Shown here: positions 3,151-62,160 of the stretch, piece after piece
Layout: each line of letters begins with the position of its first letter
How positions within the stretch are numbered: position 1 is the stretch's first letter
From: the human T2T-CHM13v2.0 reference genome, Homo sapiens
NCBI RefSeq assembly: GCF_009914755.1
Contig: NC_060928.1
Length of the DNA: 64,000 bases
Reading direction: 5' to 3' (one strand)
Notes under the pieces: generated by a model
What the model saw: the letters and a program-made list of their open reading frames with translations, nothing else
Told to the model about the DNA's origin: nothing
Database searches by the model: none
Translations under genes and position numbers: made by a program

Positions 3151-3727
<577 letters not shown>

Positions 3728-5064
3728 CTATCATCAGAGTGAACAGGCAAATTACAGAATGGAAGAAAATTTTTGCAATCTATCCATCTGACAAAGGGAT
3801 AATATCCAGAATCTACAAGGAACTTAAACAAATCTACAAGAAAAAAAAAAAACATCAAAAAGTGGGCAAAGGATATGAACAGACACTTCTCAAAAGAAGA
3901 CAATTATGTGGCCAACAAACATATGAAAAAAAGCTCATTAGAGAAATGTAAATCAAAACCATAATAAGATACCATCTCACACCAGTTAGAATGGCAATCA
4001 TTAAAAAGTCAGGAAACAACAGATGCTGGAGAGGATGTGGAGTAATAGGAACACTTTTACATCGTTGGTGGGAGCGTAAATTAGTTGAACCATTGTGGAA
4101 GACAATGTGGCGGTTCCTCAAGGATCTAGAACCAGAAATACCATTTGACCCAGCCATCCCATTACTGGGTATATACCCAAAGGATTATAAACCATTCTAC
4201 TATAAAGACACATGCACATGTATGTTTATTGCAGCACACTTCACAATAGCAAAAACTTGGAACCAACCCAAATGCCCATCATTGATAGACTGGATAAAGA
4301 AAATGTGACACATATACACCATGGAATACTATGCAGCCATAAAAAGGATGAGTTCATGTCCTTTGCAAGGACATGGATGAATCTGGAAGCCATCATTCTC
4401 AGCAAAGTAACACAGGAACAGAAAATCAAACACTGCATGTCCTCACTCATAAGTGGGAGTTGAACAATGAGAACACATGGACACAGGGAGGGGAACATCA
4501 CACACTGGAGCCTGTTGGAGGGTGGGGGGCTAGGGGAGGGATAGCATTAGGAGAAATACCTAATGTAGATGACGGGTTGATGGGTGCAGCAAACCACCAT
4601 GGCACGTGTATACTTATGTAACAAACGTGCACGTTCTGCACATGTATCCCAGAACTTAAAGTATAATAATCATTTTTAAAAAAGAAATACTTTTCTCTCC
4701 AATTTTCCTGAAAACAAAGAAATAAAGATGGCAGACAGTTCTAGTATGAAGTGTTATTGAAGTGCTAAATTAGCAAGTTTCCCTGCATTTTTAGTTGAAT
4801 ACTATTTACAGTAGTAAATAAAATAAAATAAACAATTTTATTTTTAAAACATTTTCAGTAAAATTTTGAATATGCTCAAATAACACTACCCCTGAGGTAG
4901 AGTTGGATCAGTCTGTTGTTAACAGGCCTTGGTTTCATTTTAAGTTTAACAAAGACTGTTTCCCCAACATTTCCATGGAAACTGAACTTCTTAGCACCTA
5001 TAATAATGTGTCCCCTCATATAACAATAATTTATTTTGCTTATACTATAAAGGCCTATAATGGT

Positions 5065-27049: not shown

Positions 27050-27882
27050 TAGGTTTTATAATTTTAGAGATGTTTTAGGGTCACAGCAAAATAGAGTGGC
27101 AAGTACAGAGAGATCTCATATACCCTCTGCCCTCACACAGGTGCAGCCTGCCCTACTATCAACATCCCAGGCCAAAGTGGTGCATTTGTTACAATCTGTG
27201 AACCTACATTGACACATCATCACCCAAAATCCATAGTTCACATTAGGGTTCACGGTTGCTATTACACATTCTCTGGGTTTTGACAAATGCTTTAGGACAT
27301 GCAACCACCACTGTAGTATCATACGGAATAGTCTCTCTGCTTTAAAAATCCTGTGTTCCATCTCTTCATCTCTCCCTCCCCAGTAACTCCTAGCAACCTC
27401 TGATCTTTTTAGTGTCTCCATCACATTGCCTTTTCCAGAATGTCATATAGTTGGAATCACAGAGTATGCAGCCTTTTTACATGGGTTTCTTTCACTTAGT
27501 TACATGCATTTAAGTTTCCTCCATGTCTTTTCATGCTTGATAGCTCATTTGTTTTTAGCACTGAATAATATTCCATTGCCTGGATATATCACAGTTTATC
27601 CATTTACCTACTAAGGACATCTTGGTTGCTTCCAAGTTTTGACAATAGTGAATAAAGCTGCTATAAATATCCATATGCACATTTTTGTGTGGACATAAGT
27701 TTTCATCTCCGTTTGGGTAAATATCAAGGAGCGTGATTGCTGGATCATATGTTAAGAGTATGTTTAGTTTGGTAGGAAACTGCCAAACAGTCTTTCAAAG
27801 TGGCTGTACCATTTTGCATTCCCACCAGCAATGAATGAAAGTTCCTGTTGCTCTACATCCTTGCCAGAATTTGGTGTTGTCA
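27050..27882 (-). mobile_element. L1MC-type 3' end and ORF2 tail
   Basis: GGTTCACGGTTG...; GTGGCTGTACCATTTTGCATTCCCACCAGCAATGAATGA. Confidence 0.85.
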
Positions 27883-27987
27883 TTTAATCTGATATTCAAA
27901 ATGAAGAAACAGTCCAGCCTCCAAGTGAAATGACTGGAACCAAGGTTTTCTAACTGCAATCAGTATGCTCCTTCCATTTCACCAGGG

Positions 27988-28641
<654 letters not shown>

Positions 28642-29529
28642 CACAGAAGAATCAGACCCGATTAGAAGCATCCTCTCAATGAAGAAAATCCTAGGCTTCG
28701 TAATGGTTTTCAACCAACAAATGAGAAAATATATTCAAAGGCAGTTTCTTGTATGGCCCTCCTCCCCATAGAATTCTCTTTCTTACTTTCCCAGACATTT
28801 TAGCATTGTATAGGCAGTGATGCTACACATAGGAAGTATTGAATTTTGACTCCGCCAACAGTAAAGAGTACTGTCGCTAAGATTCAGACTGTGTTTTCCC
28901 CTTCAAGGGAGCTAAGCAGCATCCTGCCTGGCTTCATTTTTTTTTTTTTTTTTTGCCTTAAGGTTTGTTTATACTCAGCAGGAGGAAAGGTAAGGAGATA
29001 AAAGCAACGCAGAATGAATAAAGGAAGACAAGACTACAGCCAAACACGGGGAAGGCAAGATTAGAGGAGCAAGCCCCAGGGAAGAAAGTTTACAGGTTAC
29101 CAACTGAGTAGATGGAAAGGGAGATTATGCCAGGAACACAGTGGCCAGAAGGAAGAATCCCAGAGACAAAATCGCCACAGGCAAAGGTTATTTCAATGCA
29201 CAAATCTCCCAAAGTGTGGATCAAGTCGCCGAAATAATTAATTTAATTCTGGCTATTAGCTTCTTTAGCCGGCTGGGATCCCCACTGGTATTTTAACCCA
29301 GATCCTTGTGGGGGGGTAGGGATCATTTAGGAAAGGAGCCATGGGAAACAGGAAGACCGTTTGAATCTGCAATTCCTTCTTTCCGCCGCTGGCTTCGCAG
29401 CTGGAGAGGAGAGGAGAAAGATCTCTTGCCCAACATCAGCCTGAGAAGACCCTGATATTTTAAGCTCTTGAAAAGCAGAAAAGATGACCTTTTCTCAGCA
29501 TCCCCCAAAGTAATCTTATAAATGATAAT

Positions 29530-29770
29530 GAGAGGCCAGTCACTGAATGCTTGCGATATGCCAGGCCCCAGATTAGATCCTTCCCATATGTTAAATGTCT
29601 TTAATCCTTACAACAACCCCTTGAGTCAAGAAATACTACCGGGATTTTGAAAAGGAGATTTTGAGAAGTCAAATGACAAGGCTGGTAAAAAGCAAAAGTG
29701 AGACTCGAACCCACGGTTGTCGGTCTCCAAAGCCCATGCTCTGAAACCACCATGAGACACTGTCTCCCAG
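29530..29770 (-). mobile_element. MIR
   Basis: TTTAATCCTTACAACAACCCC ... GACTCGAACCCA...CTCCAAAGCCCATGCTCT. Confidence 0.7.
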
Positions 29771-31509: not shown

Positions 31510-32960
31510 ATTATTTATTCACAAATAGTTTTTGGAGAATCTGGTATGGGGATAACACTTATACTAAGGTTGAGGAGTGAGATTGCAGGGATTTGAGAAA
31601 GATACAAGCTCCTACCCATGAGGAGATTAAAATGTACAGTGGGACATAAAACATGTACATGAATAGCTACAATGGATGTTTTGTACTGCCAGCAAGGGGT
31701 CGTGATTAATTTTTTAAAAATTACCTTGGGCTTAAGGAATCAGGAAAGGCTTCATGGAAGAGGTGGTAATCGTGTTTTAAGACCTTAAAATGCAGATGGA
31801 TACAGGCAATTCAGGCCCAGGAAGTGATCCAAGAAAGGCTCAGAGCCAGTTACGAGGCAAGTGTGTTAAAGAAGTTTCAAGAAGTCCAGACACACGGAAG
31901 CACAATGTCTTATGCTAGAGAACCAGGGTAGATGGGACTAAGAAGGTAGCTTAAGGTCAAATTACAAAGACTCTTGAAGGCCAGGCTAACAGCTTTGTAA
32001 TCTATTTAGTATACAGTGTGGATCAGAGCAGTGACCTCAAAAGATAAATGTGCCAAGCCTGTGCAAAATGAATTTGCCAGGGAGAAAAGAGAGGCACGGG
32101 ACCATGTGAGAGGCTACTGCAATAGTCCAGGCAAGAGGTCAGGAGTGCCAGAATTAGGGCATAGGCAGTGGGAATGGGAGAGAAGGGCTGAGGGCCAGAG
32201 ACAAAGACCTGACTGCACTTGGCAAGATGTGTGAGACTAGGCGAAGGGATCAGGTGACTCAAGACTCTGGCTGTGGAAATGAGAAGCTTTAATTAGAAGT
32301 CCTGGGCCCAGGAACGCAAATATCTAACTGTCGATAGGAAGCATGGAACTGGCCCGTGGGAGAGGCATCAGGATTGAAGTTTTAGATTTGGGAGTCATGT
32401 GTCTGGAAGTGATAGATGAAGCCATTAAAAACAGGGAAACATGGCTTGGCACAGTGGCTCACGCCTGTAATCCCGGCACTTTTGGAGGCTGAGGCATTTG
32501 GATCACCTGAGGTGAGGAGTTTGAGACCAGCCTGGCCAACATGGCCAAACCCCGTCTCTACTAAAAATACAAAAATTAGCCAGGCATGGTGGCGTCTGCC
32601 TGTAATCCCAGCTACTCGGGAGGCTGAGGCAGGAGAATCGCTTAAACCAGGAGGCGGAGGTTGCAGTGAGCCGAGATCACACCATTGCACTCCAGCCTAG
32701 GCAACAGAGCGAGATTCCATCTCAAAAAAAAAAAAAAAGGGAAAGAGTGGAAAAGGAGAAATTTGGGGATAGGAACTCAAGTAACAGTGACAACTGGTAG
32801 GAAAGGAAGGAGAGTTGGAAGGGAGTTAGGGAGGAAGTGAAAGAAGAAAGGAAGATCAGAGAAGCAGGGAGGAAACAGAATGTAAAGTTACAGAGGAAAA
32901 GGAAGAAAAGAGTTTAAAGAGGGAGTTCTATTAACAGTATTAAAGCAGTCAAATCACCTT
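31510..32960 (-). mobile_element. L2 LINE fragment interrupted by an Alu
   Basis: GAATCAGGAAAGGCTTCATGGAAGAGGTGG, GAGGCTACTGCAATAGTCCAGGCAAGAG, GATTTGGGAGTCAT. Confidence 0.7.
32443..32738 (+). mobile_element. Alu (AluSx-like)
   Basis: Full dimer with A tail; AGGGAAA on both flanks. Confidence 0.95.
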
Positions 32961-33249
32961 CTCCAGTTTGTTTTTCTTAAACTTGACTTTTCTTTTGTAG
33001 GGGTAACTCAGTTCTGTTGAGGAACAACTCCCAGCACATGCCAAGAATCCCTTCCTTCCCCTGGGAAGAAATGGCCACAGCCACCAGATAGGTTTTGAAA
33101 CCTCACTGATGAAGCAGAAAAACAGTTGTCAGTGATTTGAGAGCCCTGAAATCTGGTCCAAGTTCTGCCTAGCAAGTAAATTTCACAACCTCTCTGGGTG
33201 TATGTAAATTCCCCTATAAAACAATGGGTCAAGATTAATTGCACAAAGA

Positions 33250-33620
33250 TACACATTGAAGGATGCTTGTTGTAATATTGCTTTATTATAGCAAAAGTCT
33301 GGAAACAACCCAAATGTCCAGCAACAAGGTATTGGTTACATAAATTGATATGTTCATCTAGCAGGTCACTTTGCAGCCATTAAAGGTTACAATGTAGAAA
33401 TAATTTGTCGACACATAAAGATGTATACATTATATTGAGTTCAGAAGCAAATTATAAAACATGATCTTTTTATAACATATATGTATAGAAAAAATTTATA
33501 GATGATATAAATTTCTAAAAGGAAAGATGAGTGGTTGCATATTTCATTTTGCTCATCTGTACCTTCTAATTTTTCTCAAATAAAAACTGCAGGTAAAAGT
33601 TCAAAAACATACTTTTTAAA
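33250..33620 (+). mobile_element. L1ME-type fragment
   Basis: TTTATTATAGCAAAAGTCTGGAAACAACCCAAATGTCCAGCAAC. Confidence 0.7.
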
Positions 33621-46230: not shown

Positions 46231-46527
46231 TATTTCCTATTTTTTTATTTTTGTTGCAACCCCCTAAAATGATCTCATGAGCAACAAATCAGTTGTATCC
46301 CACAGTTCTTCAAACCCTGCTATGGGCCACAGGGAGGCAAGCAGGGTGTTTTTTTAACTGGGAAGTGACAAAATCAGGTATATTTAGTGTGATAATTTCA
46401 GTAACAAGGTGAAAGGGGAACTGAACTAGGAAACCCTGGAGCCAGGGAAGCCTGCTACAAGGCAAGAGTCCAGAAGAGACATGGTATGAGTCTGAAGTAA
46501 GGCACAGACCCTGAGACAGAAAGTAGG

Positions 46528-46920
<393 letters not shown>

Positions 46921-48519
46921 CTACAGTGGGGATGCAGGAGAGATTTCTAGATGGAAAGATTGATGGGATGATGTCAACATTAACTAGGATAGAGAACACA
47001 GAGAATAGAACATGTTTGGGTGATAGGAGGTTCCCTGTTTGTACTTGGTAAATATGAGATGTATACAGGAAACCCCAACAGAAATGTCCAGTAAATGACT
47101 GGATAGAAGAATGCAAACTCTGCAAAATATAACTGAGATAGAAACATGGATACAGATGAAATTAGCTGAAACATCATCATTAAAGCCTCCAAGTGGATAA
47201 AATCTCTTAGAGGGTCAGGTGTTAGAAAAAGCAGGGAGAATAGACCAGTCACCCTGGGATCGCCAACATTCAAGGACCAGAGAGAAGAACCAGAAAGACC
47301 GTCGAATGTGCTGGAAGAAAGTGTAGTGGCAAGTGGCAGAAGGTACTTTGTGGCCTCATCATTTTCCAACACAATACTTTCCATTCATCTCCATACATAT
47401 TTGTGTCCTGTTTCCTCCACTAGAATAAAATATGCCGCTGAATCTCCAGAAGCTAGAATAGGGCCCCTAGCACATGGTAGGGATCAATAAATATTTATTG
47501 AGTAAGTGAATGGATAAGTACATAAAATCAAGCCAGGGAAGGAAAGTATTTCAAAATATGGGAGTTGTCAACCAAGGCAATTGCTTTAAAGAATCAAGAA
47601 AGAGGGCTGAAAATAGGTCATTAGATTTGAAAATTAGGTTGTTGGGAACCTTAGAAAGATCCATTTCAATAACATGTTAGGATAAAAGCTAAATGGTTAT
47701 GGCTTCAGGGAAAATGGGGGTGAGGTCACAAGTTGCAAGGGAGTAGGAAGAAATGTCAAGAGAAGGTTAATTTGGAGGAAGAGAGATGAAAGCAATCAGA
47801 GATCATGTATAGACTCAGGTGAATAAGACAGAGGAAAGAAAGTGAAGTTAAAAGAGGGGGAAAGCAAAATTGTAAGGTAGCGGTAAAGGTGGAAGGGGTT
47901 AGGAAGTCCAGTATACAGGTGAAGACGTTGACCTTAATAAGCTTTGTCTGTGACAGAAAAGAAGAGGAGGAGAAGATGTGCCTGCCATGGGTGATAAGGA
48001 TCTTTTTTTCTCTCTCTGTGAAAGATGAGGGAAGATTTTCTGCACAACCTGCACAGGGTGAGGGAGAGCTCATTTTGGATGTGCTGCCATCAGGGATTGG
48101 AAGGTAGCTAACCGAGGAGAGCAGAGGGATTTCATGAAGCACCAAAGACTTAGCGCAAATCAGATAGACTGACTTCATATGGTGTCAATCAGCATGGTCA
48201 TGGAACTCCATTTAGCGATGCATAGAGCGCCAGAGCAGATGCAGAGAAAAACAAATTGGACTCACCCAGCATCCAGAGCGTGGTCTAATGAGAGGTGCCC
48301 TGGAAGAAAGCCTCCCTTTCTTCTCTGCCCATAAGCACAGTTAGCTCCAGTCTTAGCCCCACTGGATGGGGTTGTGTGATCCTGAGTGTGTCACCATACC
48401 TCTGTGAGTGTCTTGTCTACAACTGGGGACTGTAATATCTTTCTAGTCTCACTGGCTTGTGGTGGGGCTCCAATCAGATAATTGATTTGAATAACTGTTA
48501 CCAACTCCTAAATGCTGCT

Positions 48520-49790
48520 CAGGTGGCCGCCTTGCGGTTCCCCTGAACCAAACTTCTGCCATCTTTCATAATGCAGCTCTGGGAAGACACACCAGCCTCT
48601 ACCAGGCACCTGGCAATCTCTCTTTTTGCCCCATGGGTGTCACATTTTTGACCTATAAAACAAGAACAATTTTCAGACGAGACCCTAAACTCGTTCAGTA
48701 TCTATTTAAATTACTTCCCCATGAAAAGAACTTCTGCCGACTCTAATGCCTTAGAGATGGAACCAGGGAGAGAGAAATTTGCTTTTGTTAGCGGACTCCA
48801 TAATTAGATGGAGATATGTCCACCTGGGTAATAGCTAATGGGTTTTTTAAACTTTTTATATAAATATTTCAGTTTCCTTCCCTGCCAGATTGACTTTTTC
48901 TCAATATTAATTGCCTCCATAGTCTTAGTCTATAGCAACATTTCCAACCACTGTCCCTGTATGTTTTATTTCTTTCTCAGGAGGCTGCTATTGGATGACT
49001 TCATTTAAATTTTTTAATACCATGAATAAATATTACCTTACTTCGCTCTGGGGGGGACAGGCAATTCTCGGGAGGGAGACTGTCAACTCCTCAGCAGTTT
49101 ACTTCATGAAATAGGTTACTGGGTTTTATTCCGGCCTACAAGTTTCATAAACTAGGAAAATCCCCATCTCTTTTAACCCATGCTAATTATCATTATCTGC
49201 AGGAGGGGCATATAAACTCTCATTTTGAAAGCTCCTTTCTACAGGCTTTGAGTTTATGAATGATGCCTCTTGCCTAAAGGATTATTTGACAGCCTTTTAG
49301 ATAACGACTTTCCTCTCCTTGTTGATTCTCAGATCCCACATGACGGGGTAATGTGGGATGCTATGTTGCAGCCATAAATTACTCCTTTTTCATCATCTCT
49401 CTCCTCTGCCAATGCAGAGGGTCATCTTAGGCCCCCTATACTTTTTAAATAAGCTCTAACTCCTCATCATTCCTGAGCACATGTTCTGTTCCCTGGACAG
49501 CCCGATTTTTATTGCTGAAACTCAAGAAGCTATTAAGTCTCCTCAACCTGGCAGGGCCCCAGGACCAGATGGTGTTCTCCTGGTTCTTATAAAGCCTTTA
49601 TTAACAAAAGGACACCACAAGCCTCGCTGGCCGCCATAATGACTGCTTTTCCCACCCACGGAAGACCCTAGCTGGGGAGGACAACCTGTTGATTGCTATT
49701 CTTGTCATCATTGTCAAAACATCTTGCCATCTCCACGTTGCCCTGAATTCTTTTCTGATCCTTTGCAGGGTACTGATTAGAACTGCTCTC
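48520..49790 (+). pseudogene. Ancient L1/Tx1-clade non-LTR retrotransposon ORF2 relic (APE endonuclease to start of RT)
   Basis: Colinear motifs ISLFAP, ADSN, WRYVH, IDFF, ISNHCP, FFNT, LWGGQAILG, SLDSPI...GRAPGPDG, YKAF, AILVIIVK, ILCRVL. Confidence 0.7.
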
Positions 49791-51049
49791 TCTACCCAAA
49801 AGAGGAAAGAAAGAAAGGAAAGAAGGAAGCATTTAAACTAATGAGAGATATAAACAACAGATGACAGAGGGGGCTTTGCTATGAACTCACCACCTCTCAT
49901 ACGGATTTTTAACAGTTTGGCAGTGATGAGGCCCCCTCAGGAAAGTCGGATCTGTTCATTGCTAAGCTAGAATCATGAGATTTTTCACGGAGGATTTGCT
50001 TTCAGACTGAGGTAGCTTTTCATCATGAGCTGATGCAGCATGCCACATGTGACTCTGAGTGTCACAGCTATATCAGGGTGCCCGGGAGAGCTGAGAGAGT
50101 CAGTAATGGTATATAGAATTTCTCACCTCTGGATCACTAGTTCAAATGCAAAAGGCCATAAAAAGCTGTTATCTTCTGGCGGACTCAGTGAAAGTTTCCA
50201 GGCGATATCAGCTGCCACAAATGGCGCTCGCGTGACAAATGCTCGGTGCACAGGGTCTCAGGGTGGGGCCCCTGGAAACTCATGCTCTCTAAGGTCATGG
50301 TCGGCTTGGGAAAGCAAAAGGCTCAGACAGAATAAGTGGCCCCTTTCCACCTGTTCTGTGATCTCCATGGGGAATGGATTTTGCCAACATCAGATTGTTC
50401 ATAAACGCAGATTGCCCCTCGATGCATTGTTGGGATTACTTTAAAAGTTCAACAGCTTCACTCTTGCTCTCACCTAATTCTTTTGTCCATTCATGACAGG
50501 CCCATGGAAACCTTTCAGATTCCTCCAAAACTCATCCACCTCGTGGGGAGAATGGGTGCTGTCAATGACAGCTGCCCGTACATTTTGTTCAGAAATGTTA
50601 ACACACCAGGGAATTTTCTCAGCCCTGGCACTTTACAGCTCAGGACCTTTTCTTGCTGAATACTTAAGTTATTTCTGGAAAAATAACTTTTATTTCCAAA
50701 GAAATACGGCAGGTGACACAGAAACGTCCCTTCTTGTTTATTCACTGTCTGTCGTAAGGTTGGCTGTCTTTGCTTTAACTCTTTTTCCTCTTTCTTCACG
50801 CTGTTGGGCTTCTCCTGCCCCTTTCTGGGACCTTCTCTAGAAATACAGCCCTATACCTAGACTTCAGTTCCTGCCTTTGAAGGCAGAACTGTTCTTCCCT
50901 CAGGTAGTATTAGAAGGACAGTGAAGCACCTGGAACTCATCCTCCCTGTATCACCGAGGGCCCAGCAAGAAGTCTGATAATGGCACAATGACATCATAAA
51001 TTACATAAATTAATGCTCTGCCCTCCAGTTGCACTGGCATTTGCTCACT

Positions 51050-51570
51050 TCTGCAGACAGGCCATGCCTTTGCCCACACTGGGTCTTTGCACAAGCTGTT
51101 TCCCCTGCATGGAAGCCCTTCCTACTTGCTGTGCCTAGTAAACTCCTGTTTTCTCATCAGATCTCACCTAGATCATGGCTCCCTGGAGGAAGCTCTCCCC
51201 AAGGCTCTCACAGATTGGGGACTTAACATGTTTGTGACTCAGACAAATGTCTACCTCCTCCACTAGATTGCAAGCTCCAGAAAGGTGAGACAACCTCTCC
51301 TCATTTCACTGCCTCACCTTTGAATCCCAGAGCTAAGCCCACAGCTGGCACATTTTCAGCACCCTGTAGATAGGATTGGAATGAACCAATCATTTCATTT
51401 AACGTTTACAACCACCCCACTAAGAGGTGATTTTTTAAAATTTCCATTTTACTAACAAAGATACTGAGGTTCAAGGAAGACAAATCACTTGCCCTAAACC
51501 ACACAGCATATAAGTAGGCAAAAGCAAGATTTGAACTTGAGACCAAGAGATGCCCAAGCCCTGCTTTTTC
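51050..51570. mobile_element. L2 3' fragment (+) followed by MIR (-)
   Basis: TCTTTGCACAAGCTGTTTCCCCTGCATGGAA, CCACTAGATTGCAAGCTCC; CCATTTTACTAACAAAGATACTGAGGTTCA. Confidence 0.7.
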
Positions 51571-51829
51571 TGCAATTTAGTTATGACCCTGCTACCGGGC
51601 CTCAGTCGCTAATACTGAGCTGTTAAAAAAATAACTGTGAAATGTCCTAGCCCCTGATGTGTACCACTCTTGTTTGTCAGTTTAGTAGCATGGGCTGCTA
51701 GGTTGCATCCACCCAACTCTATACACATGAGCCACTGTCACTCCTCAACCACTATTCCACTGAGCCAAATTAAGCCTCTAATTCCTTATATTGCATATTC
51801 CTTAGATATTCCCGATCAATATAATGTTC

Positions 51830-52050
51830 CCAGCCAGGATAAAAGTGAAGCCGGTGAGATACTGGCCTTGGATACAAAACTTAATGGGTCACCAAAATCT
51901 CAATAAGCAAGATAGTATTTTAATGCAATGTATAAATTTGACACCAAAAAATTGATGATGAGCAAAATGTCAAAATTTGAAATAAAGACAGGATGGGTGT
52001 GACTGATTTTTCCACTGCCTCAGGCTCCAATGTGGCTCGACACAGCACCG
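51830..52050 (-). mobile_element. hAT-type DNA transposon fossil (MER96B-like)
   Basis: GCCTCAGGCTCCAATGTGGCTCGACACAGCAC end and AAATAAAGACAGGAT block. Confidence 0.45.
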
Positions 52051-52088
52051 CTCTGTGCAGCTCTCACAGGTGAGCAGAGGTGGCCAAC

Positions 52089-52634
52089 GAGTTGACATCT
52101 ATGAGCCATCCCATAGCCCTGGTCACAGAGCTGACATCGATTGGCCATCCCATAGCCCTGGTCACACAGCTGACATCAATTGGCCACCCCAGAGCCCAGG
52201 TCACAAAGCTGACATCGATTGGCCACCCCAGAGCCCGGGTCACACAGCTGACATCGATTGGCCACCCCAGAGCCCGGGTCACAGAGCTGACATCGATTGG
52301 CCACCCCAGAGCCCGGGTCACATTGCTGACATCGATTGGCCACCCCAGAGCCCAGGTCACAGAGCTGACATCGATTGGCCACCCCAGAGCCCGGGTCACA
52401 GAGCTGACATCGATTGGCCACCCCAGAGCCCGGGTCACAGAGCTGACATCGATTGGCCACCCCAGAGCCCGGGTCACAGAGCTGACATCGGTTGGCCACC
52501 CCAGAGCCCGGGTCACAGAGCTGACATCGATTGGCCACCCCAGAGCCCAGGTCACAGAGCTAATATCTATTGGCCACCCCAGAGCCCAGGTCGTAGAGCT
52601 GACAGCGATTGGCCACCCCAGAGCCCAGGTCGCA
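52089..52634. repeat. Minisatellite/VNTR, 14 x 39 bp (GAGCTGACATCGATTGGCCACCCCAGAGCCCGGGTCACA)
   Basis: 546 bp = 14 exact-length units; central units nearly identical, terminal units diverged. Confidence 0.98.

Positions 52635-53250: not shown

Positions 53251-53667
<417 letters not shown>

Positions 53668-61476: not shown

Positions 61477-62160
<684 letters not shown>

What the first reader, a model, noticed from the sequence alone, without database searches (positions are those of the whole stretch)
48520..49790. Hidden ~1.25-kb fossil of a non-mammalian-type L1/Tx1 retrotransposon ORF2 in apparently unique DNA
Seen: the + strand encodes the landmark motifs of APE-endonuclease/RT ORF2 in the correct order. 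These are ISLFAP 48616-48633 (NIYAP), ADSN 48736-48747 (GDFN), WRYVH 48809-48823 (WRxxHP), IDFF 48889-48900 (IDY/H), ISNHCP 48940-48957 (SDH), FFNT 49010-49021 (FFET), LWGGQAILG 49046-49072 (LWxxxKAVxRG), GRAPGPDG 49550-49573, YKAF 49588-49599 (after a 1-nt shift), AILVIIVK 49695-49718 and ILCRVL 49758-49775. The stretch 48962-49573 stays in one net frame with 7 stops. The 44 codons from 49442 align without gaps to this window's own L1PA ORF2 (FWDTY...SPGPEG) at 13/44 identity. Knowledge: GKAPGPDG..FYKAF and WRxxHP are typical of fish/amphibian/reptile L1 and Tx1 elements, whereas mammalian L1 has KSPGPDG..FYQ, and this DNA lacks the A-richness of mammalian L1. Inference: a very old, possibly pre-mammalian insertion. 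Staying readable this long would suggest slow evolution or exaptation, for example as an enhancer. The ORF track misses it entirely.
Basis: partly seen in the sequence, partly recalled or inferred. Interest (0 to 1): 0.8.

Follow-up and report, generated by a model that had tools for sequence, protein, structure and literature searches.

The report
Short dead relic of ancient L1-like retrotransposon
About 160-175 bases of this human intron are a genuine, broken leftover of an ancient L1-like jumping gene that looks more like lizard, frog and fish L1s than human ones, but the claimed 1.25-kb fossil with an endonuclease half is not supported, and relics of this kind are already catalogued.

Summary
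Only one stretch beats chance: window 49442-49599 (at most 49617), + strand.

This stretch is the ORF2 segment just before the reverse-transcriptase core (LDSPI..AIKS..GRAPGPDG, then SYKAF). It has one TAA stop and one -1 frameshift.

I built a scoring matrix from 50 full-length L1-type ORF2 proteins chosen without reference to the locus. Against it the stretch scores 56.9 bits. Dinucleotide shuffles reached 26.0 at most (0 of 250 as high). The 30 codons before APGPDG rank first of 117,816 positions. HMMER gives E 7.9e-4 window-wide.

The best matches are lizard, frog and fish ORF2s and unnamed ones, at up to 23 of 53 identical. The window's own human L1PA matches 14 of 53.

The endonuclease half (48520-49441), AILVIIVK/ILCRVL and everything downstream are at chance level.

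KAPGPDG is not a non-mammalian marker, because old human L1 copies carry it.

Hundreds of such protein fossils in human DNA are already described (PMC9004415). Verdict: real but small, a new member of a known kind. Age and exaptation are untested.

The parts
49442..49573 (+). Frame-2 part of the relic: 44 codons ending in GRAPGPDG. It aligns to the ORF2 segment just N-terminal of the RT core (model columns 428-471).
   Evidence: Frameshift-aware alignment. The flank-only score of the 30 codons before APGPDG is 25.25 bits, first of 117,816 positions (next 15.69). HMMER domain 49505-49576, E 7.9e-4.
49457..49459 (+). In-frame TAA stop inside the relic.
   Evidence: Sequence and translation.
49550..49573 (+). 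Hallmark octapeptide GRAPGPDG.
   Evidence: The APGPDG-coding pattern occurs 238 times in the genome, against 121 for the reversed control.
49573..49599 (+). Frame-1 part after a -1 frameshift directly behind GPDG. It ends in SYKAF, aligned to (E)FYK(K/A)F of the references. With the human-L1 matrix the alignment runs on to 49617.
48520..49441 (+). Claimed endonuclease and linker half. Not distinguishable from chance.
49618..49790 (+). Claimed continuation (AILVIIVK, ILCRVL). Not distinguishable from chance.

Best explanation
Window 49442-49599 (at most 49617; T2T chr4:24,415,442-24,415,599), + strand, is a dead relic of about 160-175 bp from one small part of an L1-superfamily LINE ORF2. It covers the 50-odd residues just before the reverse-transcriptase core: L(D/N)xPI...E..AIKS...G(K/R)APGPDG, then (F)YK.F.

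Shown: the homology, the strand, one TAA stop, one -1 frameshift, and that the best matches are non-mammalian vertebrate L1-type ORF2s.

Inferred: an L1-like element was copied into this intron by target-primed reverse transcription in a distant ancestor, probably from a lineage other than the one that gave today's human L1 families (I put this at about 0.6). The rest of the copy (endonuclease, RT core, C-terminus, tail) has been deleted or has decayed past recognition. It encodes nothing now. Any present role could only be as non-coding DNA, and that is untested.
For: (1) References chosen blind to the locus. 120 ORF2-like proteins were found with an old human L1 piece as query. The 50 full-length ones were aligned and turned into a scoring matrix.

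(2) The frameshift-aware local alignment scores 56.90 bits at 49442-49599. Dinucleotide shuffles gave mean 19.65 and max 25.99, with 0 of 250 as high; the Gumbel fit gives 2.8e-11 per 1.5-kb block. Of the other 79 blocks in the window, only two score comparably (78.59 and 47.87), and both are ordinary L1 fragments. The rest are at or below 33.26.

(3) The flank alone, meaning the 30 codons before APGPDG, scores 25.25 bits. That is first of 117,816 positions in the six frames of the window (next 15.69).

(4) A plain hmmbuild/hmmsearch on the same alignment gives 11.2 bits, E 7.9e-4, over 258 frame-blocks. It is the second-best hit outside the L1PA element.

(5) Identity is up to 23/53 (P0010, P0016). 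Further values: 22/53 P0019 (Podarcis), 21/53 P0069 (frog) and P0051 (fish). The window's L1PA gives 14/53, P0005 11/53 and P0006 14/53.

(6) 20 chance APGPDG sites elsewhere in the genome score 14.8-20.7 with the human-L1 matrix. This site scores 28.7.

(7) 9 of the 13 best non-self genome matches of the 59-aa frame-2 piece lie at the same site of L1 ORF2.
Against: - Only 53 codons carry the signal, and HMMER's own E-value is modest (7.9e-4).
- A profile made only from decayed human L1 copies chosen by RT similarity gives no significant hit: -4.3 bits, E 5, rank 8.
- The human-L1 matrix gives 28.73 bits against 26.56 for the next block. That is about 0.06 window-wide by the Gumbel fit.
- My first 17-bit result came from copies picked for similarity to the query, so it is biased.
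- Pfam, PDB and the 1.84-billion-protein search found no LINE match.
- The reference set was gathered through a 5-residue word index from a query that itself holds APGPDG, so the hallmark columns are enriched. The flank-only test avoids this.
- The matrix, gap and frameshift penalties are my own.
- The best two references are unnamed, so their taxon is unknown.
- The lineage call rests on 47 flank residues. The best decayed human row reaches 14/47, against 17/47 for the best reference.
Confidence: 0.88

Rival explanations
1. One reading: one 1.25-kb fossil running from the APE endonuclease (NIYAP, GDFN, WRxxHP, IDH, SDH) through the linker into the RT, all colinear on the + strand.
For: The strings exist in the right order. 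WRYVH, IDFF and ISNHCP give ungapped segments of 12.9, 11.3 and 12.7 bits at similar offsets (+116 to +134 nt) against the non-mammalian matrix. The reference P0017 does read WRLLHP, RIDFF and ISDHAP.
Against: - No Exo_endo_phos or RVT_1 match in any frame.
- Best local score in 48520-49441 is 15.68, below the null median of 17.33 (n=124 blocks).
- On-diagonal segments have mean z of -0.84 (n=10) and -0.11 (n=20).
- The best colinear offset bin sums to 105.5, against shuffles at 133.0 +/- 19.0, with 284 of 300 shuffles as high or higher.
- The 61-aa piece holding FFNT/LWGGQAILG has no non-self match in the genome.
- HMMER reports nothing there above -6 bits.
Confidence: 0.06
2. It is an ordinary, very old fragment of the mammalian L1 lineage (L1M/L1ME type), not of a separate, non-mammalian-type lineage.
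For: Old human L1 copies read KQKAPGPDGFTGEFYQTF. One (L208) even reads RAPGPDG. Such copies are very numerous: about half of the 238 APGPDG sites. The best decayed human row has 14/47 flank identities, not far from the 17/47 of the best reference.
Against: - BLOSUM62 sums over the 53 positions are 82-96 for the best non-mammalian-type references. They are 50 for the window's L1PA, at most 57 for any of the 28 human rows, and 13 and 47 for P0005 and P0006.
- A content is 0.27, below all 15 old L1 copies (0.30-0.44). Identity over the 66 nt before the hallmark averages 0.36 to those copies, which share 0.46 among themselves.
- Recognised old copies score 71.6-245.5 bits with the human-L1 matrix. 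This site scores 28.7.
Confidence: 0.25
3. Chance resemblance: unique DNA that happens to spell APGPDG with a lucky flank.
For: About 121 APGPDG-coding sites are expected by chance in the genome (reversed-pattern control). Standard tools with mammalian references give only borderline values: tblastn E 0.035 for one of five query pieces, and the unbiased human HMM E 5. KAPGPDG also occurs in an unrelated phage protein family.
Against: The flank-only score is first of 117,816 positions. 0 of 250 shuffles come within 30 bits. None of 20 chance APGPDG sites has a comparable flank. HMMER gives E 7.9e-4.
Confidence: 0.04
4. The relic survives because it was exapted as a non-coding regulatory element of the PPARGC1A upstream region. 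This is an add-on to the main explanation, not an alternative.
For: Orthologue-like ORFs from other mammals are 87-92% identical in amino acids over the core: 22/24 in P0001 by tblastn, and 26/30 in P0003 counted by hand from the alignment. My hand estimates for the stretches just upstream are about 40-70%. PMC9004415 reports that many such old fossils are conserved and overlap regulatory marks (passages read).
Against: - Only two informative species, of unknown identity.
- The comparison is of translations, not of DNA.
- Indels shift the frame in the flanks and lower their apparent identity.
- The RefSeq enhancer in the window lies elsewhere (28852-29555).
- No conservation track or chromatin data could be consulted.
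Confidence: 0.15

Closest known systems
TE 'protein fossils' in the human genome (Frith 2022, Mol Biol Evol 39:msac068, PMC9004415)
   Same: Short, frameshifted, stop-ridden remains of TE proteins in DNA that looks unique. They include L1 and L1-Tx1 types otherwise known from non-mammals and are often conserved. The paper reports 1,641 novel TE fossils in human. Among pre-amniote ones it lists 137 L1 (22 already known) and 12 L1-Tx1 (passages read).
   Different: I could not check whether this locus is in that catalogue. PPARGC1A is not in the main text, and the one held supplement has no entry for it. The age of this relic is unknown.
L1-type ORF2 proteins of lizards (Podarcis muralis, Anolis carolinensis), a frog (Leptobrachium leishanense) and a fish (Denticeps clupeoides), as named by UniRef
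   Same: The same segment before the RT core, with L(N/D)xPI..E...AIK....GKAPGPDG(F/L)..(E/K)(F/Y)YK.F. Identity to the relic is 20-22 of 53.
   Different: Those are full ORF2s with endonuclease and RT Pfam domains. Here only 53 broken codons remain.
Old human L1 families (copies reading KQKAPGPDGFTGEFYQTFKEE)
   Same: The same hallmark and the same position in ORF2.
   Different: Lower similarity to the relic. They are A-rich, with A at 0.30-0.44 against 0.27. They remain recognisable over hundreds of codons, at 71.6-245.5 bits against 28.7.
Tx1 clade of L1-like LINEs
   Different: No curated Tx1 protein was available. 'Transposon TX1' is an automatic name on grapevine proteins, and these match the relic poorly (plants/fungus median 8 of 47). 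Tx1 membership is therefore undecided.

Membership tests
APE-type LINE ORF2 (any clade) | Segment before the RT core with the (K/R)(A/S)PG.DG hallmark in its usual context | tested here: met
   56.9 bits. The flank is first of 117,816 positions. HMMER E 7.9e-4.
APE-type LINE ORF2 (any clade) | Apurinic-type endonuclease domain upstream | tested here: not met
   No Pfam match. Scores are at or below the null.
APE-type LINE ORF2 (any clade) | RT core (RVT_1, motifs with GTRQG and F/YADD) downstream | tested here: not met
   No RVT_1 in 49600-52600. HMMER finds no domain. The offset-bin hint of 7/300 shuffles vanishes against real DNA, where 18 of 80 are as high.
APE-type LINE ORF2 (any clade) | 3' tail and target-site duplication | not tested
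   No element ends could be defined.
L1 superfamily rather than CR1/L2/RTE-like | FYK/FYQ-type continuation and an AIK-type flank, rather than the LLK type | tested here: met
   FYK-type references give 20-23/53. Among the lowest of the 50 references are P0099 7/45, P0111 7/46, P0103 8/46 and P0080 12/51; P0080 is one whose motif region reads LLK. The frameshift that yields SYKAF is chosen by both matrices, but its own gain is small.
Therian L1 lineage (L1M/L1P families) | DNA-level similarity to family copies and an A-rich sense strand | tested here: not met
   66-nt identity is 0.36 against 0.46 among copies. A is 0.27 against 0.30-0.44. Whole-genome DNA search finds only the locus itself.
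L1-Tx1 clade | Closer to curated Tx1 ORF2 than to L1 ORF2 | not testable with these tools
   No curated Tx1 reference could be obtained.

The most novel reading that the evidence does not exclude
The relic is what is left of an L1-like element of a lineage extinct in mammals. It inserted before the mammalian radiation, possibly before amniotes. It has stayed readable because this ~170-bp piece was taken over as a cis-regulatory module in the large regulatory region upstream of PPARGC1A.
Probability: 0.12. Interest if true: 0.4.

Novelty: new member of a known kind. Interest (0 to 1): 0.2.

Why it matters
In itself it matters little. It adds one more small ancient L1-like protein fossil to the hundreds already catalogued in human DNA (PMC9004415). 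If orthologues in marsupials, monotremes or sauropsids showed it to be very old and constrained, it would mark a candidate regulatory element of PPARGC1A, a metabolic master regulator.

The method lessons matter more:
- Eye-matched chains of 3-5-residue motifs over three frames were indistinguishable from chance here. Only the one information-rich hallmark with its flank was real.
- A profile built from copies picked for likeness to the query gave a falsely strong result: 17 bits, against -4.3 bits for the unbiased profile.
- Intact references from other vertebrates settled the question. Decayed copies from the same genome did not.

Tried and rejected
- Pfam on all six frames of 48400-49900 and on the + frames of 46400-48500 and 49600-52600: no endonuclease or RT family.
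- PDB sequence search with the 500-aa read-through and with the 59-aa piece: nothing at E<=10.
- Search of 1.84 billion representatives with the 59-aa piece: 3 orthologue-like short ORFs and one artefact, a TIG-repeat protein.
- Protein atlas: 30 nearest clusters without a Pfam family; an RVT_1 cluster only at 0.89.
- Whole-genome DNA search: only self.
- Genome protein searches: the 61-aa piece and the 28-aa piece found only self. For the 78-aa piece, 0 of 6 hits were L1.
- Degenerate motif scans to obtain non-mammalian LINEs. Viral contigs gave 0 hits, then 120 loci that were nearly all a phage ribonucleotide-reductase-like protein. Genome contigs gave 0 hits.
- The profile from query-selected L1 copies (17.0 bits) was rejected as biased after the unbiased profile gave -4.3 bits.
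- The hint of a downstream RT continuation (7 of 300 shuffles) was rejected after the real-DNA null, where 18 of 80 were as high at threshold 8 and 75 of 80 at threshold 10.
- Earlier findings were not open.

Full report
**What is there**

The window is human T2T chr4:24,366,001-24,430,000, inside the long upstream part of PPARGC1A.

Frame 2 from 48962 to 49573 holds 7 stops in 204 codons. That is not fewer than random DNA would give. I counted the 13/44 ungapped identity to the window's own L1PA ORF2 by hand.

The + strand of 48520-49790 is not A-rich (A 0.25, T 0.32). The window's L1PA ORF2 has A 0.43.

**Standard searches found nothing**

- Pfam on all six frames, with stops read as X, gave no endonuclease or reverse-transcriptase family. 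The + frames of the flanks 46400-48500 and 49600-52600 gave none either.
- The PDB, which I recall holds human L1 ORF2p (no call confirmed this), gave no hit at E<=10.
- The stop-free 59-aa frame-2 piece (49460-49636) was searched against 1.84 billion representatives. It returned only three short ORFs that are plainly the same locus in other mammals (P0001, P0002, P0003) and one artefact from a repetitive TIG protein.
- A whole-genome DNA search found only the locus itself.

**Tests with human L1 as reference, and a trap**

tblastn of the window's own L1PA ORF2 pieces against the other 59 kb put 49490-49573 first. The margin was small: 26.2 bits and E 0.035 for one of five pieces, with the next hits at 24.3 and 22.7.

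The 59-aa piece has 13 non-self matches in the genome at E 1.7-6.8:
- 9 lie at the same site of L1 ORF2.
- 3 do not.
- 1 gave no alignment on re-check.

These copies descend from one sequence, so they count as one observation.

A profile built from those nine copies gave 17.0 bits, against 1.7 for the next hit. That profile is biased, because the copies had been picked for likeness to the query. A profile from 28 rows, taken from 29 L1 copies chosen only by RT similarity plus the window's own L1PA, gave -4.3 bits, E 5, rank 8.

My frameshift-aware alignment with a matrix from the unbiased copies gave 28.73 bits at 49490-49617. The next blocks scored 26.56, 26.51 and 26.11. 0 of 400 shuffles reached it. 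The Gumbel fit gives 7.4e-4 per block, about 0.06 for the 80 blocks of the window. At that stage the case was only borderline.

**Census of the hallmark**

The DNA pattern coding APGPDG occurs 238 times in the genome, against 121 for the reversed control. I could fetch 39 of the 238 sites:
- 19 lie in old L1 ORF2 copies on the right strand (15 unique). They read KQKAPGPDGFTGEFYQTF.
- 20 do not.

So KAPGPDG does not mark non-mammalian elements.

With the human-L1 matrix, the 20 non-L1 sites score 14.8-20.7 and the recognised L1 copies 71.6-245.5. This site scores 28.7, between the two groups.

The flank-only p-value depends on which human rows are used: 46, 249 or 7,134 of 117,816.

**The decisive step**

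I used a 169-aa stop-free piece of an old human L1 copy (L208) as query. The 5.8-billion-protein search returned 120 ORF2-like proteins. They include proteins that UniRef names as from Podarcis muralis, Anolis carolinensis, Denticeps clupeoides and Leptobrachium leishanense, as well as plants, a fungus and many unnamed ones. They were chosen without reference to the locus.

The 50 full-length ones were aligned and turned into a 1,238-column matrix. Results:
- The locus scores 56.90 bits over window 49442-49599, model columns 428-480. There is one in-frame TAA (49457-49459) and a -1 frameshift directly after GPDG that leads to SYKAF.
- Shuffles gave mean 19.65 and max 25.99, with 0 of 250 as high. 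The Gumbel fit gives 2.8e-11 per block.
- The 30 codons before APGPDG alone score 25.25 bits, first of 117,816 positions. The next is 15.69. This test does not depend on the hallmark, which the word index may have enriched.
- Only two other blocks of the window score comparably (78.59 and 47.87). Both are ordinary L1 C-terminal fragments.
- Plain HMMER on the same alignment gives 11.2 bits, E 7.9e-4, at 49505-49576. It is the second-best hit outside the L1PA element.

**The rest of the claimed fossil**

With either matrix, nothing in 48520-49441 or beyond 49617 exceeds chance:
- The best endonuclease/linker score is 15.68, against a null median of 17.33 (n=124).
- On-diagonal segments have mean z of -0.84 (n=10) and -0.11 (n=20).
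- The best colinear offset bin upstream sums to 105.5, against 133.0 +/- 19.0 in shuffles. 284 of 300 shuffles are as high or higher.
- WRYVH, IDFF and ISNHCP do give 11-13-bit segments at similar offsets. Such segments are common in shuffled DNA.
- Downstream, a hint of 7 of 300 shuffles disappeared against real DNA from the same window: 18 of 80 as high at threshold 8, and 75 of 80 at threshold 10. HMMER sees nothing there.
- The frame-3 piece with AILVIIVK/ILCRVL has 0 of 6 genome hits in L1.
- The FFNT/LWGGQAILG piece has no non-self hit.

**Lineage**

Over the 53 aligned positions:

| Reference | Identical of 53 |
|---|---|
| P0010, P0016 (unnamed) | 23 |
| P0019 (Podarcis), P0031 | 22 |
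| P0069 (frog), P0051 (fish), several lizard proteins | 21 |
| Window's L1PA | 14 |
| P0006 (close to the old human L1 query) | 14 |
| P0005 (close to the old human L1 query) | 11 |
| Best of the 28 human rows | 17 |

Flank identities out of 47, by group:
- lizards: median 13
- fish and frog: 15 each
- plants/fungus: median 8
- unnamed: median 9

Among the lowest of the 50 references are P0099 (7/45), P0111 (7/46), P0103 (8/46) and P0080 (12/51). P0080 is one whose motif region reads LLK. I read the LLK type as CR1/L2-like from recall.

At the DNA level, the 66 nt before the hallmark are on average 0.36 identical to 15 old human L1 copies. Those copies share 0.46 among themselves. A content is below all 15.

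I read this as an L1-superfamily element, probably (about 0.6) from a lineage other than the therian L1 lineage. Tx1 versus L1 is undecided, because no curated Tx1 reference could be obtained.

**Conservation**

P0001 and P0003 match 49232-49726 colinearly, with several indels and frame changes. So the locus is shared with other mammals and is not under coding constraint.

The core is 22/24 (tblastn) and 26/30 (my hand count) identical in amino acids. My hand estimates for the stretches just upstream are about 40-70%. This is a weak hint of slower change in the core. It rests on two species of unknown identity and on translations only.

**What is known**

Frith 2022 (PMC9004415; I read passages and searched the one held supplement) describes exactly this kind of object. 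The paper reports 1,641 novel TE protein fossils in human DNA. Among pre-amniote ones it lists 137 L1 and 12 L1-Tx1, many conserved and overlapping regulatory marks.

PPARGC1A does not occur in its main text or in the held supplement. The full lists on GitHub and Zenodo could not be consulted, so I cannot say whether this locus is already listed. I ran one literature search and do not claim that the locus is absent from print.

**Limits**

- The matrices and penalties are my own.
- The best two references are unnamed.
- No vertebrate genome alignments, Dfam or chromatin data were available.
- Only 39 of the 238 hallmark sites could be fetched.

Noticed in passing
window 27503-27884, - strand: Ordinary L1 ORF2 C-terminal fragment (zinc-knuckle region onward). 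It scores 78.6 bits with the ORF2 matrix and HMMER 20.3 bits, E 1.4e-6, and overlaps the NCBI-masked 27482-27870.
   Followed up: partly
window 61859-62158, - strand, and 33237-33374, + strand: Two more small L1 ORF2 C-terminal fragments. The first scores 47.9 bits. The second scores HMMER 9.0 bits, E 0.0036, hmm 1167-1212. The 33.3-bit block at 32651-32854 looks like a low-complexity E/K-rich match, not a real one.
   Followed up: partly
window 52089-52631: Minisatellite of 13.9 copies of a 39-bp unit, 93% matches. A (TTG)n run lies at 53286-53329.
   Followed up: no
own genome, 238 sites; loci L174-L212: The APGPDG-coding pattern is twice as frequent as its reversed control (238 against 121). 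The excess is explained by old L1 copies reading KQKAPGPDGFTGEFYQTF (19 of 39 sampled). L184-L188 are five near-identical copies on contig C1, which looks like a segmental duplication.
   Followed up: partly
IMG/VR loci L054-L173: 105 of 120 phage contigs with KAPGPDG carry it in a conserved ..GGFKAPGPDGL.. context of a large protein. That protein weakly matches the B12-dependent ribonucleotide reductase insertion domain (22.1 bits, below the cut-off of 27). The heptapeptide is therefore not specific to LINEs.
   Followed up: partly
proteins P0001, P0002, P0003: Public protein collections hold 'proteins' of 52-182 aa that are spurious ORFs called on non-coding mammalian DNA orthologous to this intron. 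They can serve as makeshift orthologues.
   Followed up: partly
window about 3170-3780, inside the L1PA element: The L1PA copy is interrupted by an Alu-like stretch and a long purine-rich (GAAA/GGAA-type) simple repeat, seen as K/E/R-rich and S/F/L-rich ORFs on the two strands.
   Followed up: no
window 49795-49830: Purine-rich GAAA/GGAA-type simple run about 180 nt after the relic. Too close to the relic to be the tail of the same element if the element were complete. Origin unknown.
   Followed up: no
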